A stretch of DNA of 64,000 nucleotides from an uncultured Gammaproteobacteria bacterium (GTDB taxonomy: Bacteria; Patescibacteriota; Patescibacteriia; UBA1558; GWA2-36-10). Location of the stretch: assembly GCA_964515785.1 (NCBI GenBank), contig CAZEWH010000001.1:134941-198940 (forward strand). The letters run 5' to 3'. Within the stretch, counting starts at the first letter, position 1, and every line of letters begins with the position of its first letter. A program made the position numbers. This document shows positions 39,001 to 48,000 of this stretch, in pieces.

Positions 39001-42000
39001 TTGATTTGTTCTGGCATAGCTAGAGCAAAAGAGTAAATAGCCAATTGAGCTGCTCCCAAAAAATGAAATGTCAGTATTTTGTCTATTTGAGCAGCTACAG
39101 TACTAATCGCATCCATAATAGTTAGATGTTTGCCATAAGAGATTGTAGATGAATCTTTGTTTGTATTGAGTTTTGTTTTCCGGATAGTGATTTTCAAGAA
39201 AATAAAACGGACTGCAGTATAAGAAATAAAATAAGTAAATAAGATTAGAAAAATATTTTTGGTTACAAAAAGAGTAACAACCATAGCAATGGTTATAATA
39301 ATTTTTGTAACTATATTATATGAAGAGAGAGTTTTGAATTTTTTTTGACCAATTAACAGCGAGATATAAAGATTGAATGAATCCATTAGTGGTAAAAACA
39401 CAGCTGTGATTAAAAAACCAAAAGTCAGAGTTGTGTTGTCATTCCAAAAATAGTACCCAGCCAAAAATAGACTAACCAAGCTTCCTATTAGTCCCCATTT
39501 AATTTTGGTTTTTAGAGATGGTATAAAAGATCCTTCAAATCCTTTGGCTACAGTTCGTGTGATGCTAGTATTTATTCCAGATAAACTAAAGATAGTTAGC
39601 ATACTGGAAATAGATAATACATATTTATATATACCGTATGTTTCTTTGGGTAGTAAATTGGCAAAAGCAATAGCCAACAAAAAAGCAGAGGCAGATGATG
39701 CCAACTGTCCAATAATTAACCAAGTGCCACCTTTAGCTAAATACACCATATCTGTTTTGGTATATTTTTCTGAAAGACGTAGCAGACTATATATTTTATG
39801 ACGAAGAGACATTAACGACCTAATGAAATATTAAAAATAGCATTGATAGTACGGAGTATAATAGAAATATCCATGGCTAGTGATTGATTTTTTATATAAA
39901 ACAAATCATAACTTAGTTTTTCACGAGCATCTTCTACACTAGCACCATAAGGATAATTTATCTGAGCCCAGCCAGTTAGACCTGGCTTTACTAGATGACG
40001 TTCGTTATAAAATAATATTTCTTCTTTGAGTTGTTCTACAAATTCAGGTCTTTCGGGTCGAGGACCAACAAAGCTCATATTACCCATCAAGATATTCCAA
40101 AATTGTGGGATTTCGTCTAGACGAGTTTTGCGGATAAATTTGCCGATTTTAGTAACTCTAGCATCACCTGGTTGAGCCCAAACAGCTTTGCCATCTTTTT
40201 CTGCGTTTACAGTCATTGAGCGTAATTTGTAGACTGTAAATACTTTACCAGTTAGACCAACGCGTTTTTGTTTGTAGATAAGATTTCCTTTTGATTCTAG
40301 CTTTATAATAATAGCTAAAATAGGCAATAAAATAAGACCAACTATGCCCAATATAATAGCAAAAAAGATATCCACAACTCTTTTGACGATTAAAGCCCAA
40401 ATATTGTTTTTTTGAGAAATATTATCCAAAAACCAAGTTCTTTCTAGAGCAGTGACAGGAATTTTGCCAGTAATTTTTTCATAAAAATCAGTCAAATTAA
40501 AATAATTTAGTTTCATATCAATACTTTCAAATAAGTAGCGGGCTACTTCAGGGCTATATTTTGGATTTGAGACAGCAACAACTGTATTGATCTTGTGTTG
40601 AGCAAGTTGATTTTTAAGATCCGAAATATCTTTGCTAGTTGGTATAACTTGAAATTTTTCTGGTATAGCAGAATAATCAGGATTGATAATTAATTTTAGT
40701 TTGTATCCTAGATGAGGTTTTTTTATAATTTCTTCTGCTAGTAATAAGGACTCAGGGTTGATACCAATAACTGCTAAATTATTTGTTAGTTTGGTACTAG
40801 AGATGAGTCTATAAAAAATACTACGCCACAAGATAAATAAAATAGTATAAATAACAAGTAAGATAAGTAAAACTTTTTGTGGACGTAGAGTGGTCACTTG
40901 ACCGAGGATTGTATAGAAAAATAAAACTGCCAGCAAAGCGTTGACAATTTGATTTTGAATTAGTTTGCCATAAAATTTAAAGTCATTGCGTACTTTACGA
41001 ATTTCGTACAAGCCATTGATAAAAAAGACAATAATCCAAAGTAAGAAAATAAAAGAAAAAGGCACTAAGTGTCTGTGCCATAAGCCTGGTTCTAATTCTC
41101 CATAACGAATCCAGATTGTTAGAGCTAGACTTGCATACAATAGTCCAATGTCGATCAATAAAAGAATAAATTTGCGCATTTAGTTTTATATTAATTAACC
41201 GCTATATTATAATATAAAACCTTATATTTTGTCAAATTTTGTTTAATAAAAAATGTTTTGTTTTAAACTATAAAATATGTTATAATTTATTAACAGATAA
41301 AGTTCTAAAAATAAAAAAACACAAACAAAAATAAAGAAAAATAATAATGAAGTTAGCTGAAACAAAAATATACATTAAATTTATTTCATGGTTTATTGGT
41401 GTGGCTTTTTTGTCAATTTTATCTTTCTTTGCTGTCATCTATTTCTTTACTCCAAACTTGATTGATCTATTATCAGCTGGCTTGTGGCGAGGTGTAATAA
41501 TTGGCATTTTTGCAGCTCTAGCCGTAGCTCTACTTTTATCTTTATTAGCTACAAAATATTTGGCCAATATAGTATCTAGCCCTGTTCAGAGAGCTATAGG
41601 TAAATTATTCAAAGTAGTTGATAACTTAGCAAAATCAGTACAAAATTTGTCTGATATTAGCCAAAATAATAGTGAAGTTTCTCAATTTTTAGTGGTTTCA
41701 AGTCAAGAACAACGTAAAGGTTTGACCAAAGGCAAAAGAGCTGTGTCTGGTATAGTCAATTCTCTACAAGCTATTTCTCAAAAAACTCAAGCTGTTGCAA
41801 AAAGTGTAAGTAGTTTAGATGACATGGCATCAGGAAGTGGCCAGCAAAAAGTGTCGTCTGCTTTAAACAATCTTAAAGCAGTCAACAATCTGGTATCTGA
41901 ACATCAAAAGTTGAATAATGCTTTAGACCAATACTCTCAACAAGTTAAAAATATTGACGAACAAGTAAATAATATATCAGAAGTCACAGAATTACTTAGT

Positions 42001-45000: not shown

Positions 45001-48000
45001 GAAAAAAAGATTTTGTTACCTTTTTAATTGAGCAAAGTTTACTCAAACCAAAAGAAATTGGTCAATTGATTGCTAATGATTTACACGTTAAATATGTCAA
45101 TTTAGCTAAAGAAAATATTGATAACGAAGTCTTGCATTTATTACCAGAGATTGTGGCTCGCAAACAAAACATGTTGATCTTTAAGCGTGATGAAGCTGGA
45201 GTAAAAGTAGCCATGGCCAATCCTTTTGATTATCCAATGATCAAGGCTTTAGAAAAAAAAGTTGGTGAAAAAGTCATTCCTTATTTTTCTACTGAATTTG
45301 AAATAAAAAATTCTTTTGGATTATATCGTCGTAGTATTCAACAAGAGTATGCAGCCACTATTCAAAAACATGCTATTGCTGCTCAAGGATCTCGGGTAGA
45401 AGATGTCTCGGTGGTCAAATTGGTTGATGATATTTTGAGTTATGCTTTTACAAATGCTGCTTCTGATATTCATATTGAGCCATCTGAAAATGATATTAAA
45501 GTTAGGTTTAGAATAGACGGTATTTTGTATGATGTTTTGACTTTATCCAAAAGTATTTTGTCTTTGATTGTTACTCGTTTGAAAATTTTAGCTAAATTAC
45601 GAACTGATGAAAGTCGTAGTGCTCAAGATGGTAAATTTGCCAATCGTATTGAAAATGAAAAAGTAGATGTCCGTGTTTCTATTGTACCGATTACTGATGG
45701 TGAAAAAGTAGTGATGCGTTTGTTATCTTCCAAAGGTAGCCGTTTTACTTTAGAAGATTTGGGTATGATTGACGCTGATTTGGAAAAAGTCAACAAAGCA
45801 ATTGCTAGACCCTATGGTATGTTGTTGTCTACTGGTCCGACTGGTTCTGGTAAAACCACATCTCTCTATGCCATGATAAAGATTTTAAATCATCGTGATG
45901 TCAATATTTGTACTATTGAAGACCCTGTTGAGTATGACCTTGATGGTGTAAATCAGATTCAGGTCAATCCACTTACTAATTTGACTTTTGCCAAAGGCTT
46001 GAGATCTTTGCTACGGCAAGATCCGGATATTATGATGGTTGGTGAGATTCGTGATAAAGAAACTGCTAGTATTGCTGTTAATTCTGCTATGACTGGTCAT
46101 TTGGTTTTGTCTACTTTGCATACAAATGATGCAGCTACAGCTCTACCTCGTATGATAGATATGCAGATTGAACCATTTTTACTTGCTTCAACCATCAATG
46201 TAATCATTGCCCAACGTCTGGTGCGTCGTATTTGTTTGAAATGCATTGTTAGTTATAAATTAACTGAAAAAGAAATAGATAATATTAGACAAGAAGTTGA
46301 TATAAATAGATTTTTAAACACTGCTAATATTAAAGAGATACGTCTTTATAAAGGCAAAGGATGCTCACATTGTAACAATAGTGGTTATGCTGGTCGAATA
46401 GGTATTTTTGAAGTTTTGGATATTGATGATGATGTCCGCGAATTGATTAGCAATCGAGCCAATGCTGATACTATCAAACAAAAAGCTATTGAAAATGGTA
46501 TGAGCACTATGATGGAAGATGGTCTTAAAAAAGCTATTGCTGGTAAGACTACTTTAGAAGAAATATTTAGAGTAACTAAACAATAATATATGTTATTTAA
46601 TTACAAATTTTCAGACAGTAGTGGCAAGATAGTAAAATCAACTATTGAAGCAGTTGATGCTAGTGATGCTCGTAATCAACTATCTCTCAAAGATGGTATG
46701 TTACTTTCTTTGGAACCAGCTACAGAAAAAAAGAAGAAAAAGAAGAAAAAAGAAAAAAAGAAATCTAAAAACAAAAAAGGTGATATTACTATTGGCCGTA
46801 TAAAACTATTAGAAAAAGTAATGTTAGCCAAGCATCTGTCTATCATGATCAAATCTGGTATGGCTATAGATGGTGCTCTAGAGGTATTGATGGACAATGC
46901 CAAACCACTTATGGCAAAACGTATCCAAGTAATTTTAGAAGATGTACGCAAAGGAAATGCTTTTTCAACTGCCCTCAAAAAACATCCCAAAGATTTTGAT
47001 ACATTATTTGTTAATATGGTTCAAGTTGGTGAATCTGGAGGTACTTTAGCAAAAAATTTAAATCTATTATCTATCCAACAGCAAAAGAATTTTGAACTAA
47101 AACAAAAGTTGAAAGCAGCTGCAATGTATCCATCTATAGTTATGGTAGCTATTATTATTTTGATGGTAGTTATTTCTGCTTTTGTATTACCAAAAATTAC
47201 TGGTTTTTTCTCTACTTTAAAGATTACATTACCATTATCAACTAGAGTTTTTTTGGGTGTAGCTGATTTTTTTGGTAATAATTGGGTATTTATTATTATT
47301 TTGATAATTTCTTTTGTTGTGGTTTTAAAAATAATGTCTCATATCAAACCAAGTAGATATTTGATATATAAAACTATGTTGAGATTGCCACTTATTGGTG
47401 GTATTACCAAAAATATGAACTTGGCTTTGTTTTCTAGGACTTTGGCTTCATTGTTGGATAGTGGTATTACCATTGATAGATCTCTTCAAATTGTAGCTAA
47501 AACTCTGACCAATGATGTTTATAAGAAACAAATTCAAAATATTTATCATAATGTTTTAAAAGGTTCTTCTTTGGCTGATTCTCTTAACAACAAAACTTAT
47601 TTTCCTATTATTATGTCAAGGATGAGTAGGGTAGGTGAGCGGTCTGGTAATTTGAGTGAAGTACTGGATTACTTAGCCAATTTTTATGAATCAGAAGTTG
47701 ATCATACTACCAAAAATTTATCAACAATTTTGGAACCAGCTTTACTGATATTTATAGGTTTAGTAGTTGGTTTTGTAGCTATGTCTATTATTAATCCAAT
47801 TTATCAATTAACAAGTAGGGTAGGTAGTTAATGTTGAAAAATATTTATAATCAAAATGGTACTTCTTTAGTTGAGGTCTTATTGATGATCGCAATTTTTG
47901 TGATTTTGATGACCTCAGCTGTGTCTTTGTTGACTAACAAAACTCAACGGGAGGATTTGGTGTCCAAATCCGCTGAAGTCACTGAGTTGATTTCTAGAGC

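What the first reader, a model, noticed from the sequence alone, without database searches (positions are those of the whole stretch)
41347..46586. Che-like signalling cassette (MCP-like, CheW, CheA, CheY) transcriptionally fused to the type IV pilus machinery
Four genes with overlapping stops and starts encode a sensor-less MCP-like coiled-coil protein, CheW, a CheA lacking a P2 domain and a single-domain CheY. They run directly into pilB, pilC and the pilin genes on the same strand with 3-16 nt gaps. This resembles Pil-Chp/Frz-type chemosensory control of pilus extension, but in a minimal form with no CheB, CheR or CheZ in the window. The receptor-like protein is atypical: it is Ser/Gln/Asn-rich, has no periplasmic ligand domain and only weakly matches the MCP hairpin. 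It may sense a membrane or contact cue. In a host-attached reduced-genome bacterium this would be a compact attachment or motility controller.
Basis: partly seen in the sequence, partly recalled or inferred. Interest (0 to 1): 0.7.

Follow-up and report, generated by a model that had tools for sequence, protein, structure and literature searches.

The report
Minimal Che module heading pilus operon
A four-gene chemotaxis-type signalling pathway (a receptor with no sensor domain, CheW, CheA and a CheY-like regulator) forms the first genes of the type IV pilus operon in one lineage of ultra-small CPR bacteria. It is a stripped-down, apparently undescribed way of wiring a Che pathway to a pilus motor.

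Summary
Window 41347-46586 encodes a two-transmembrane receptor with no sensor domain, CheW, a P2-less CheA, a single-domain receiver and PilB. PilC, pilin-like genes and PilM follow on the same strand. Junctions run from -4 to +16 nt, and no terminator-like site was found.

The receptor alone falls below Pfam's MCPsignal cut-off (24.6 against 34.6 bits). Its family profile, however, matches the Thermotoga receptor TM1143 over the full length (E 9e-15). AlphaFold gives a roughly 150-residue-per-arm hairpin with no HAMP domain.

The gene order MCP-CheW-CheA-REC-PilB-PilC holds in every related locus long enough to show it. These comprise 25 loci from about 24 GTDB species genomes plus metagenome contigs, labelled Candidatus Komeilibacteria, Parcubacteria or Patescibacteria. 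A sister Komeilibacteria lineage keeps the same operon, but its receptor carries a roughly 235-residue external domain. That domain was lost at least twice.

No CheR, CheB, CheC, CheD, CheZ or PilT lies in the window, and the family has no conserved methylation motif.

Best reading: an adaptation-free phosphorelay whose CheY~P acts on the pilus extension motor, with input from the membrane or the pilus machine. This is inferred, not shown. It is not a Pil-Chp (Tfp-type) system by architecture. I found no paper describing it. It is a new variant of a known kind.

The parts
41180..41346 (.). Divergent intergenic region between the sugar-transferase gene (minus strand) and the receptor gene. It is the candidate promoter region for the Che-pilus operon.
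   Evidence: One search finds a 12/12 sigma-70-like site on the minus strand (41235-41206) and a 10/12 site on the plus strand (41185-41213). TGTTATAAT lies at 41278-41286, 60 nt before the ATG, but that motif is not enriched over chance. These are candidates only.
41347..42501 (+). Chemoreceptor (MCP) without a sensor domain, 384 aa. It has a conserved N-terminal stub plus TM1, an external loop of about 10 residues, TM2 continuous with a signalling hairpin of about 44 heptads, no HAMP domain and its tip at residues 226-231.
   Evidence: Pfam MCPsignal 24.6 bits, below GA 34.6. Family profile against TM1143 (2CH7/3JA6): E 9e-15 over 289 positions. AlphaFold helices 2-34, 45-225 and 232-378. 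Foldseek top hits are MCPs. Residues 1-15 are the most conserved and loop 35-45 the least. There is no conserved methylation motif.
42501..42911 (+). CheW coupling protein, 136 aa.
   Evidence: Pfam CheW 25.8 bits, above GA 23.5. The family profile matches T. maritima CheW 1K0S over its full length at E 1.5e-14.
42908..44461 (+). CheA histidine kinase, 517 aa. Domains: P1 (His46), a roughly 30-aa disordered linker, P3, P4 and P5. There is no P2 and no fused receiver.
   Evidence: Pfam Hpt, HATPase_c and CheW-like. NCBIfam CheA_Halo E 4e-73. Alignment to E. coli CheA 6S1K and T. maritima 1B3Q. Invariant H46, N266, D298/G300/G302, F336 and G351-G355 in 27 family members. AlphaFold domain layout.
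44468..44881 (+). Single-domain receiver ('CheY'), 137 aa, with D12/D13, D56, S86, Y105, K108 and a short Ser/Lys-rich tail.
   Evidence: Pfam Response_reg 81.6 bits. Active-site residues are conserved in 23 family members. It is 70-80 % identical across the family, while the receptor, CheW and CheA are 27-50 %. The best NCBIfam matches are RpaB/PhoB/PleD receivers, not CheY.
44898..46586 (+). PilB-type pilus assembly (extension) ATPase, 562 aa.
   Evidence: T2SSE 434.8 bits and MshEN 42 bits. TIGR02538 type_IV_pilB 526.7 bits over residues 10-561. It starts 16 nt after cheY.
46590..47831 (+). PilC platform protein, 413 aa.
   Evidence: T2SSF 192.3 bits in two stretches. GspF and PilC NCBIfam matches.
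47831..55137 (+). Five pilin-like or minor-pilin genes (173, 663, 1033, 422 and 136 aa). Two are very large, and one has a LamG/ConA-like domain.
   Evidence: N_methyl motif hits. Laminin_G_3 73 bits in the 422-aa protein. The genes are syntenic in related loci.
55157..56911 (+). PilM-like protein with a C-terminal membrane extension, 584 aa.
   Evidence: PilM_2 111 bits over residues 7-315.
57012..57503 (+). Pilin, 163 aa, and a candidate major pilin.
   Evidence: N_methyl 37 bits, E 2e-9.

Best explanation
This is a genuine, complete but minimal chemosensory phosphorelay that is transcribed as the leading part of a type IV pilus operon in a Komeilibacteria-type CPR bacterium.

Shown by sequence and structure prediction:
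- A membrane-anchored receptor with no external domain and no HAMP domain.
- A CheW.
- A CheA with P1(His46)-P3-P4-P5.
- A receiver with all phospho-acceptor residues.
- pilB 16 nt after the receiver gene, then pilC and the pilin genes.

Inferred mechanism:
1. The receptor, CheW and CheA form a signalling complex at the membrane.
2. CheA phosphorylates the receiver on Asp56.
3. The phosphorylated receiver binds a cytoplasmic part of the pilus motor (PilB, or the PilC/PilM platform) and gates pilus extension.
4. There is no methylation-based adaptation and no dedicated phosphatase, so the module acts as a switch reset by the receiver's own dephosphorylation. It is not a gradient-comparing chemotaxis system.
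5. The external loop is short and variable, while the N-terminal stub and TM1 are the most conserved part. The input is therefore most likely read inside the membrane or from the pilus machine itself (pilin pool, platform state or load), giving a local feedback controller of pilus activity.
For: Identity:
- Pfam and NCBIfam hits.
- Receptor family profile against TM1143, E 9e-15.
- CheW family profile against 1K0S, E 1.5e-14.
- CheA aligned to E. coli and Thermotoga CheA without P2, with catalytic boxes and His46 invariant.
- AlphaFold models of the receptor and CheA, and Foldseek top hits that are MCPs.
- Receiver active site conserved.

Coupling to the pilus:
- The order MCP-CheW-CheA-REC-PilB-PilC holds in every locus with enough DNA. 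This covers 25 GTDB loci, metagenome loci and the sister lineage.
- The cheY-pilB gap is 2-71 nt, median about 5.
- No terminator-like site was found.
- The receiver and PilB are about equally conserved (70-80 % and 68-74 %), whereas the receptor, CheW and CheA are 27-50 %.
- The receiver has no DNA-binding domain.
- In the sister lineage the glycan cluster is not adjacent but the Che-PilB linkage persists.

No adaptation:
- No CheR/B/C/D/Z/V in the window or in the flanks of the related loci whose genes carry Pfam calls (flanks of 8-10 kb where the contig allows).
- The methylation consensus is absent in 18 of 20 receptors.

Input not external:
- Loop 35-45 is the most variable region (entropy 2.23 bits). 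Residues 1-15 are the most conserved (0.54 bits).
- The TM1 motif is shared with the sensor-bearing sister receptors.
- The external domain was lost independently in P0274.

Precedent: response regulators of Che-like systems act on PilB/PilC in Synechocystis (10.1101/2021.06.11.447907) and control PilB localisation in P. aeruginosa (PMC12632253).
Against: - No experiment or interaction prediction links the receiver to PilB, PilC or PilM. Operon membership does not give the direction of information flow.
- In Synechocystis the plain CheY-type regulators did not bind PilB1; only the PATAN-type did. In P. aeruginosa PilG acts through hub proteins. No such adaptor is visible here.
- In M. xanthus the pilus and PilB act upstream of a Che-like module (PMC5544727).
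- In the window's own subclade the receptor tip is more degenerate than in the rest of the family. Its MCPsignal score is below threshold and its three closest relatives have no precomputed Pfam hit.
- Only the 64-kb window and flanks of up to 10 kb were examined. CheR/CheB, a phosphatase, PilT or further receptors could lie elsewhere in the genome.
- Related lineages carry a C-terminal zinc ribbon on the receiver that is missing here, so the output surface is uncertain.
Confidence: 0.5

Rival explanations
1. Reverse wiring, as in the Dif system. The pilus machine (filament or PilB state) is the input to the sensor-less receptor, and the phosphorelay's output is something other than the pilus. 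That output could be surface glycan or exopolysaccharide production, or another cellular process. The receiver would be either the output or a phosphate sink.
For: In M. xanthus, T4P and PilB act upstream of DifA/DifC/DifE, which regulate EPS, and DifD (a CheY homologue) is a phosphate sink (PMC5544727). In the window and its closer relatives, a large Wzx/Wzy-type glycan cluster (Bac_transf, Polysacc_synt, Wzy_C, many GT4) lies immediately upstream and is syntenic. The receptor has no external sensor.
Against: In the sister Komeilibacteria lineage the same Che-PilB operon has no adjacent glycan cluster. The glycan adjacency is therefore shallower than the Che-pilus linkage. No CheC/DifG-like phosphatase and no second regulator are present. 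The receiver is the most conserved Che component and always abuts pilB, which is unexpected for a mere sink.
Confidence: 0.22
2. Constitutive scaffold. After losing its external domain, the receptor no longer senses anything. It only holds CheA in a fixed activity state, so the module supplies a constant level of phosphorylated receiver needed for pilus assembly. On this reading it is an assembly factor rather than a signalling device.
For: The external domain was lost at least twice without loss of the operon. There is no adaptation machinery and no methylation motif. The receptor tip is degenerate in the window's subclade.
Against: The N-terminal stub and TM1 are the most conserved part of the receptor, which suggests a maintained interaction rather than a passive anchor. 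All four genes keep their length and catalytic residues at 27-50 % identity across the 25 GTDB loci (about 24 species genomes) and further metagenome loci. A constant input could be achieved far more cheaply.
Confidence: 0.15
3. True chemotaxis. The module steers pilus-based twitching up or down chemical gradients, as proposed for Pil-Chp, with ligand sensing by this receptor or by others encoded elsewhere.
For: The sister lineage's receptor has a roughly 235-aa external domain that could bind ligands. Che-like control of directional twitching is established in P. aeruginosa (PMC12632253).
Against: The window's receptor has only a variable loop of about 10 residues outside the membrane. There is no CheR/CheB and no methylation motif, so temporal comparison by the classical mechanism is not available. 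No PilT is present in the window.
Confidence: 0.08
4. Decaying remnant or mis-annotation. The 384-aa protein would be a generic coiled coil and the cassette would have no function.
For: The single-sequence MCPsignal score is below Pfam's threshold. There are weak hits to SMC-like coiled coils.
Against: Family-level profile and fold matches are to MCPs. ORFs are intact with constant length and order across the 25 GTDB loci (about 24 species genomes) and many metagenome contigs at 24-50 % identity. Catalytic residues are invariant. The apparently split cheA genes in three contigs are scaffold gaps or assembly junk.
Confidence: 0.02

Closest known systems
Pil-Chp system of Pseudomonas aeruginosa (Tfp-class chemosensory system: PilJ, PilI/ChpC, ChpA, PilG, PilH, PilK, ChpB)
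   Same: It is a Che-type pathway (receptor, CheW, CheA-type kinase, CheY-like regulator) genetically and functionally tied to type IV pili. Its regulators act on the extension ATPase PilB (PMC12632253).
   Different: - Here the kinase has one Hpt, no fused receiver and 517 aa. ChpA has many Hpt/Xpt domains and a C-terminal receiver (PMC10782961).
- There is one regulator rather than two.
- There is one CheW.
- There is no methyltransferase or methylesterase.
- The receptor has no periplasmic domain.
- The Che genes sit inside the pilB-pilC-pilin operon itself.
- The nearest outgroup CheAs are canonical P2-containing kinases of Firmicutes, Actinobacteria, archaea and spirochaetes.
Synechocystis Tax/Pix phototaxis systems (PixJ, PixI, PixL, PixG/PixH; PATAN-type regulators binding PilB1/PilC)
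   Same: A Che-like phosphorelay whose response regulators contact the pilus extension motor and platform (10.1101/2021.06.11.447907).
   Different: In Synechocystis the motor-binding module is an N-terminal PATAN domain, and the plain CheY-type regulators did not bind PilB1. Here the regulator is a bare receiver, or a receiver plus zinc ribbon in relatives. The Synechocystis receptor carries photosensory domains and its kinase is a CheA-receiver hybrid.
Myxococcus xanthus Dif system (DifA, DifC, DifE, DifD, DifG)
   Same: A small Che-like module functionally linked to type IV pili and to a Wzx/Wzy polysaccharide pathway, with no CheR/CheB (PMC5544727). From my own knowledge, not tested here: DifA also lacks a sizeable periplasmic domain.
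   Different: In Dif the pilus is upstream and EPS is the output, DifD is a sink and a CheC-type phosphatase (DifG) is present. The dif genes are not part of the pilB operon. Here there is no phosphatase, and the receiver gene always abuts pilB.
Thermotoga/Firmicute/archaeal-type core complexes (receptor TM1143 of about 44 heptads, CheW, CheA)
   Same: The receptor family aligns end to end with TM1143 (57.8 bits against 24.8 for E. coli Tsr). CheW matches T. maritima CheW better than E. coli CheW (57 against 32 bits). The cytoplasmic length of about 312 aa corresponds to about 44 heptads. In archaea this type of pathway controls a type-IV-pilus-related motor, the archaellum (my own knowledge).
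   Different: Those systems have P2, CheR/CheB, CheC/CheD and HAMP-containing receptors, and they control flagella or archaella. None of these features is present here.
Type IV pili of cultivated CPR bacteria (Saccharibacteria)
   Same: Type IV pili are conserved in CPR and have been implicated in host binding and twitching (abstract of 10.1101/2024.11.25.624915, listed).
   Different: None of my literature searches found a paper describing a Che-type module in CPR pilus loci. The only mention found is a list of phyla that have chemoreceptors.

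Membership tests
Methyl-accepting chemotaxis protein (MCP signalling domain, PF00015) | The signalling-domain HMM scores above the curated threshold. | tested here: inconclusive
   The window protein scores 24.6 bits against a gathering score of 34.6. However, 16 of 19 homologues carry PF00015, and the family profile hits the solved MCPs 2CH7/3JA6 at E 9e-15 and 6S18 at 7.6e-11.
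Methyl-accepting chemotaxis protein (MCP signalling domain, PF00015) | A long antiparallel helical hairpin with a conserved tip that binds CheA and CheW. | tested here: met
   AlphaFold gives helices 45-225 and 232-378 with a turn at 226-231. The Foldseek PDB top hits are 9A65, 2CH7 and 3ZX6, all MCPs. The family tip consensus LSLNVSIEA..FS.LVSQIRELN aligns to the canonical LALNAAIEAARAGE.GRGFAVVADEIRKLAE. The tip is more degenerate in the window's subclade.
Methyl-accepting chemotaxis protein (MCP signalling domain, PF00015) | Methylation sites and partner enzymes CheR/CheB. | tested here: not met
   The consensus [ASTG][ASTG]xx[EQ][EQ]xx[ASTG][ASTG] is absent from 18 of 20 family members, with one non-conserved match in the window. 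There is no CheR/CheB in the window or in the annotated related loci. Whole genomes were not examined.
CheA histidine kinase | An Hpt (P1) domain with the phospho-accepting histidine. | tested here: met
   Hpt scores 33.1 bits. H46, K49 and G50 are invariant in 27 sequences. The domain aligns to E. coli CheA P1 including His48.
CheA histidine kinase | The core unit of dimerisation domain (P3), HATPase_c (P4) and CheW-like domain (P5). | tested here: met
   Residues 153-515 align to E. coli CheA 264-639 and to T. maritima 1B3Q 4-377. AlphaFold shows the P3 hairpin at 157-211, P4 at 212-390 and P5 at 392-516. The N, G1, F and G2 box residues are invariant. The Pfam H-kinase_dim model itself did not hit.
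CheA histidine kinase | The P2/CheY-binding domain (auxiliary, not defining). | tested here: not met
   Only a 43-residue stretch lies between P1 and P3, and it is disordered in the model. More than half of all CheAs lack P2 (PMC10782961).
CheW | A CheW-like domain as a stand-alone protein encoded next to the receptor and kinase. | tested here: met
   PF01584 scores 25.8 bits, above 23.5. The family profile against T. maritima CheW 1K0S gives E 1.5e-14 over positions 9-135.
CheY | A single receiver domain with the acidic pocket, Thr/Ser, Tyr/Phe and Lys. | tested here: met
   D12, D13, D56, S86, Y105 and K108 are conserved in all 23 aligned members. Response_reg scores 81.6 bits.
CheY | Sequence membership of the CheY subfamily rather than other receivers. 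| tested here: not met
   The best NCBIfam matches are RpaB (87 bits), PhoB and PleD receivers. CheY_Halo scores only 53.8 bits against a cut-off of 200. Sources annotate relatives as OmpR-family regulators. The name CheY rests on context.
Tfp-class (Pil-Chp-like) chemosensory systems | Che genes in the neighbourhood of type IV pilus genes. | tested here: met
   The receiver gene lies 16 nt upstream of pilB. The order holds in all related loci long enough to show it.
Tfp-class (Pil-Chp-like) chemosensory systems | A ChpA-type kinase (multiple Hpt domains, C-terminal receiver), two regulators (PilG/PilH), PilK/ChpB and a PilJ-type receptor. | tested here: not met
   Here there is a single Hpt, no fused receiver, one regulator, no methyltransferase or methylesterase, and no periplasmic domain. 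The Pil-Chp features are as described in PMC10782961 and PMC12632253.
Tfp-class (Pil-Chp-like) chemosensory systems | Phylogenetic placement of the CheA core in the Tfp clade (Wuichet and Zhulin classification). | not testable with these tools
   No class-specific models or reference set were available. The family is separated by a sharp score drop (332 to 226 bits) from its nearest outgroups. Those outgroups are canonical P2-containing CheAs from Clostridia, Actinobacteria, an archaeon and Treponema.
Type IVa pilus machinery | Extension ATPase, platform protein, PilM and pilins with a class III signal motif. | tested here: met
   PilB, PilC, PilM_2 and several N_methyl proteins are present.
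Type IVa pilus machinery | A retraction ATPase PilT and prepilin peptidase PilD. | tested here: not met
   No second T2SSE protein or peptidase A24 was found in the window. They may be encoded elsewhere in the genome.

The most novel reading that the evidence does not exclude
Komeilibacteria-type CPR bacteria carry the smallest self-contained chemosensory pathway yet seen: four proteins, with no adaptation, phosphatase, P2, HAMP or sensor domain. It was recruited to type IV pili independently of the proteobacterial and cyanobacterial Tfp class. It works as an intramembrane feedback or mechanosensing loop. The receptor's conserved N-terminal stub and TM1 read the state of the pilus machine or pilin pool, and the phosphorylated receiver acts directly on PilB. 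The repeated loss of the external domain would then mark a shift from ligand sensing to machine sensing in ultra-small, probably host-dependent cells.
Probability: 0.25. Interest if true: 0.8.

Novelty: new variant of a known kind. Interest (0 to 1): 0.6.

Why it matters
CPR/Patescibacteria depend on type IV pili for attachment, motility and probably DNA uptake, yet almost nothing is known about how these tiny cells regulate their pili. They are generally regarded as poor in signalling systems.

This is a conserved four-gene Che module hard-wired to pilB across a whole lineage, with sister lineages that do or do not carry a receptor ectodomain. It offers three things:
- A compact case of a Che pathway coupled to a pilus motor.
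- An apparently independent instance of Che-pilus coupling to compare with Pil-Chp, Pix/Tax, Frz/Dif and the archaeal Che-archaellum link.
- A very small system for reconstitution: one receptor, one CheW, one 517-aa CheA and one receiver.

It also makes the question of what a sensor-less chemoreceptor senses directly testable.

Tried and rejected
1. Phase variation or pseudogenisation of cheA in the window's own species. Three contigs show a split cheA, but the breaks are runs of N and a foreign 32-nt insert shared by scaffolds from one assembly pipeline. I rejected this as assembly artefact.
2. Other short, P2-less CheAs from the CheA search (P0075, P0104). I checked whether they mark further pilus-linked systems. 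They sit in ordinary Che clusters with CheB/CheC/CheD or CheR and no pilus genes.
3. The external domain of the sister-lineage receptors has no Pfam or PDB sequence match.
4. Rfam scan of the whole window for a leader or riboswitch: no hits.
5. The extended -10-like TGTTATAAT upstream of the receptor gene is not enriched over chance.
6. Literature. Eight searches combined CPR, Patescibacteria, Komeilibacteria or Parcubacteria with chemotaxis, chemosensory or Che gene terms. They found no description of this system. Patescibacteria does not occur in the text or held supplements of the CheA architecture survey. The Wuichet and Zhulin 2010 paper is not held.
7. The poly-lysine tract in PilC as a slippage site. 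The longest A run is 7 nt, interrupted by G, which is not convincing.

Full report
**What is in the sequence**

The plus strand from 41347 to 57503 carries an uninterrupted run of genes:
- a 384-aa receptor-like protein (41347-42501)
- a 136-aa CheW (42501-42911)
- a 517-aa CheA (42908-44461)
- a 137-aa receiver (44468-44881)
- PilB (44898-46586)
- PilC (46590-47831)
- five pilin-like genes (47831-55137)
- a PilM-like gene (55157-56911)
- a pilin (57012-57503)

Domain searches support each name. Junctions among the first seven genes are -1, -4, +6, +16, +3 and -1 nt. The consensus scan finds no terminator-like site between 41581 and 48309. Upstream, a 167-nt divergent intergenic region separates the receptor gene from a minus-strand sugar transferase. 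One detail differs: the CheA/CheY junction is a 6-nt gap rather than an overlap.

**Is the 384-aa protein a chemoreceptor?**

On its own it scores 24.6 bits against Pfam MCPsignal, below the curated 34.6. It also gives weak hits to SMC-like coiled coils.

Family-level evidence reverses it:
- A search of 5.8 billion proteins found only 19 relatives, and 16 of them carry PF00015.
- A profile of the 20 sequences matches the Thermotoga maritima receptor TM1143 (2CH7/3JA6) over 289 positions at E 9e-15. It also matches other solved receptors.
- The alignment pairs the family's LSLNVSIEA...FS.LVSQIRELN with the canonical tip LALNAAIEAARAGE.GRGFAVVADEIRKLAE.
- AlphaFold with this alignment (pLDDT 68) gives helix 2-34, a short loop, a continuous helix 45-225, a turn at 226-231 and helix 232-378.
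- The best Foldseek matches in the PDB are all chemoreceptors.

Each arm has about 150 residues, or about 44 heptads in all. TM2 runs straight into the bundle, so there is no room for a HAMP domain.

An exhaustive profile search of 1.84 billion representatives found 30,304 receptors at E <= 1e-3 but only 21 at E <= 1e-30. This is a small, isolated clade of the MCP superfamily.

**The other three Che proteins**

*CheW.* It passes Pfam's threshold only narrowly. A profile of 16 family members matches T. maritima CheW over its full length at E 1.5e-14.

*CheA.* Residues 10-109 align to E. coli CheA 12-110, and residues 153-515 align to 264-639. The 150 residues of linker-P2-linker in E. coli are replaced by 43 residues. 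AlphaFold (pLDDT 76) gives:
- a five-helix P1 (4-125)
- a disordered linker (126-156)
- a P3 hairpin (157-211)
- P4 (212-390)
- a P5 double barrel (392-516)

His46 and the N, G1, F and G2 box residues are invariant in 27 family members. Lacking P2 is not unusual; more than half of surveyed CheAs lack it (PMC10782961).

*The receiver.* It has D12/D13, D56, S86, Y105 and K108, conserved in every member aligned. By sequence it is closer to OmpR/PhoB/PleD-type receivers than to CheY models. 'CheY' is therefore a name from context.

**No adaptation or termination machinery**

I scanned every ORF of at least 100 aa in the 64-kb window against Pfam. None is CheR, CheB, CheC, CheD, CheZ, CheV or a second T2SSE ATPase such as PilT. 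The same holds for the flanks of the related loci whose genes carry Pfam calls. Those flanks span 8-10 kb on each side where the contig allows.

The methylation consensus quoted in PMC12632253 is absent from 18 of 20 receptors of the family. The single match in the window is not conserved. Genes elsewhere in the genomes could not be examined.

**Conservation and distribution**

A scan of one genome per GTDB species found 25 loci encoding the receptor, corresponding to about 24 species genomes. They are titled Candidatus Komeilibacteria, Parcubacteria or Patescibacteria group. A few automated 'uncultured Gammaproteobacteria' labels look wrong.

In every locus with enough DNA the order is receptor, CheW, CheA, receiver, PilB, PilC, pilins. 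This also holds for:
- metagenome loci reached through distant receptor, CheA or receiver homologues
- the most distant CheA relative, at 38 % identity

Across about 22 loci the cheY-pilB gap is 2-71 nt with a median of about 5.

Identities to the window:

| Protein | Identity to window (%) |
|---|---|
| Receiver | 70-80 |
| PilB | 68-74 |
| PilC | 50-62 |
| Receptor | 36-50 |
| CheW | 27-45 |
| CheA | 38-50 |

. The module is thus under long-term purifying selection. Its output end is as constrained as the motor ATPase next to it.

The CheA family comprises about 52 clusters at 90 % identity. It is separated by a drop from 332 to 226 bits from its nearest outgroups. Those are canonical P2-containing CheAs of Clostridia, Actinobacteria, an archaeon and Treponema.

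**A sister lineage with a sensor domain**

The next-best receptors in the exhaustive search (P0269-P0273, 613-634 aa) align from TM2 to the C-terminus with no length difference. They share the TM1 motif: RLNIIFVFWFLAVAVLP against KIYLKFISWFVAVSLLP. P0270 is from Candidatus Komeilibacteria.

Its locus reads: 618-aa receptor, CheW, 517-aa CheA, receiver with a C-terminal zinc ribbon, PilB, PilC, pilins. Between TM1 and TM2 these receptors carry about 235 residues with no Pfam or PDB match.

A close relative with the same flanking genes has a 404-aa receptor (P0274). It is 51 % identical to P0269 but lacks roughly residues 60-262. The external domain has therefore been lost at least twice while the operon was kept.

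In this sister lineage the upstream genes are DsbB, CAP and an OLD-family nuclease, not the glycan cluster. The Che-pilus linkage is therefore older than the glycan adjacency.

Zinc-ribbon tails on the receiver occur in the sister lineage and in several deep branches of the window's family. They are absent in the window. So both the receptor's input domain and the receiver's extra domain are missing in the window's lineage.

**How it most likely works**

*Shown.* All parts needed for receptor-coupled autophosphorylation and transfer to an aspartate are present and conserved, and they are encoded as the head of the pilus operon.

*Inferred.* The phosphorylated receiver acts on the pilus motor (PilB, or PilC/PilM) to gate extension. 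The grounds are:
- the invariant abutment of its gene to pilB
- conservation on a par with PilB
- the lack of any DNA-binding output
- precedent in Synechocystis, where regulators of Che-like systems bind PilB1 and PilC, and in P. aeruginosa, where PilG controls PilB localisation

With no adaptation enzymes, methylation motif or phosphatase, the module should behave as a switch reset by the receiver's own hydrolysis.

The external loop is the most variable part of the receptor, at 2.23 bits entropy. Residues 1-15 are the most conserved, at 0.54 bits. TM1 is also shared with the sensor-bearing sisters. The likeliest input is therefore an interaction within the membrane or at its cytoplasmic face, possibly with pilins or the platform. 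I know of comparable intramembrane sensing for PilS-PilA and HtrII-sensory rhodopsin; this is my own knowledge and was not tested here.

I put about 0.5 on this overall mechanism and well above 0.9 on the identity of the parts.

**Rivals**

1. *Dif-like reverse wiring.* In M. xanthus the pilus and PilB act upstream of DifA/C/E, which control exopolysaccharide (PMC5544727). Here a roughly 34-kb Wzx/Wzy-type glycan cluster lies just upstream and is syntenic in close relatives. Its absence next to the sister lineage's operon weakens this reading but does not exclude it.
2. *Constitutive scaffold.* The sensor-less receptor may only hold CheA in a fixed state. Repeated sensor loss favours this, while conservation of the N-terminus and TM1 argues against it.
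3. *Classical gradient chemotaxis.* This is unlikely without adaptation.
4. *Decaying remnant.* This is contradicted by the conservation data.

**Comparison with known systems**

Functionally this belongs with Che-like controllers of type IV pili. It does not meet the architectural features of the Tfp class, which are a multi-Hpt kinase with a fused receiver, two regulators, PilK/ChpB and a PilJ-type receptor. Its phylogenetic class could not be assigned with the tools available.

Among solved structures, the receptor and CheW resemble the Thermotoga type more than the E. coli type. That fits the canonical flagellar- or archaellar-type CheAs found as nearest outgroups. This suggests, but does not prove, recruitment to pili independent of Pil-Chp.

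Eight literature searches found no description of a Che module in CPR pilus loci. Public pipelines do label individual genes as MCP or CheA.

**Verdict**

It is a new variant of a known kind. Its interest is moderate to high, for four reasons:
- its minimal composition
- its restriction to a CPR lineage
- its invariant fusion to the pilus operon
- the natural series of receptors with and without an ectodomain

Noticed in passing
window 7363-41179: A surface-glycan biosynthesis cluster of about 34 kb. It has about 11 GT4 glycosyltransferases plus one GT2, two Wzy_C proteins with TPR repeats, three B12-binding radical SAM enzymes, a further radical SAM/SPASM enzyme, a carbamoyltransferase, a Wzx-like flippase and an initiating Bac_transf. 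It is syntenic with the Che-pilus operon in close relatives, where a Wzy_C gene often sits directly upstream of the receptor gene (L001, L031, L036). It is absent next to the sister lineage's operon (L040). Wzy_C proteins include pilin O-oligosaccharyltransferases (my own knowledge), so pilin glycosylation is one possibility.
   Followed up: partly
L040 10001-11857; L042 8001-9215: Sister Komeilibacteria receptors carry an external domain of about 235 aa with no Pfam or PDB sequence match. A close relative in the same genomic position (P0274) has lost it by an internal deletion of about 200 aa. This gives a natural pair of receptors with and without the ectodomain.
   Followed up: partly
L031 11568-12230; L040 13823-14428; L024; L042 11192-11785: In several lineages the receiver upstream of pilB carries a C-terminal zinc ribbon (CxxC...CxxC; Pfam DZR/Zn_Ribbon_1). 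The window's receiver lacks it but keeps a conserved Ser/Lys-rich tail (family consensus YLNSKTQSKQAK).
   Followed up: partly
window 48342-53450: Two very large pilin-like proteins (663 and 1033 aa) have N-terminal methylation motifs. The larger one has a weak beta-propeller (Lactonase) match. A 422-aa pilin-like protein with a LamG/ConA-like domain follows (53455-54723). These are candidates for a pilus-tip adhesin complex.
   Followed up: no
window 46720-46790: PilC has a lysine-rich insert (KKKKKKKKEKKKSKNKK) encoded by an A-rich tract. The A runs reach 7 nt and are interrupted by G. PilC is 413 aa here against 400-409 aa in relatives.
   Followed up: partly
L033 about 1298-1337; L034 about 736-764; L035 1781-1809: Contigs from the window's own species show a split cheA. 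The breaks are runs of N and a shared foreign 32-nt segment (CAACTGAGATCGAAACAGGAGTGGAGACCATG). This looks like a scaffolding or assembly artefact rather than gene decay.
   Followed up: yes
window 610-6598: An ECF-type sigma factor (610-1161), a DUF5667 protein that may be its anti-sigma partner (1172-2548) and a 1220-aa protein with no Pfam match (2936-6598).
   Followed up: no
window 57609-62622: A HlyD-family adaptor, an ABC ATPase and two MacB/FtsX-type permeases lie directly downstream of the pilus operon. This is a tripartite-pump-like set in a bacterium not expected to have an outer membrane.
   Followed up: no
window 1-64000: GC content is about 27-40 % and GC skew is positive throughout. 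Nearly all genes are on the plus strand, and no tRNA or Rfam family was detected.
   Followed up: no
L011, L015-L017, L019, L024 (record titles): Several third-party MAG records carrying this CPR-type operon are titled 'uncultured Gammaproteobacteria bacterium'. This is probably a taxonomic mislabel.
   Followed up: no
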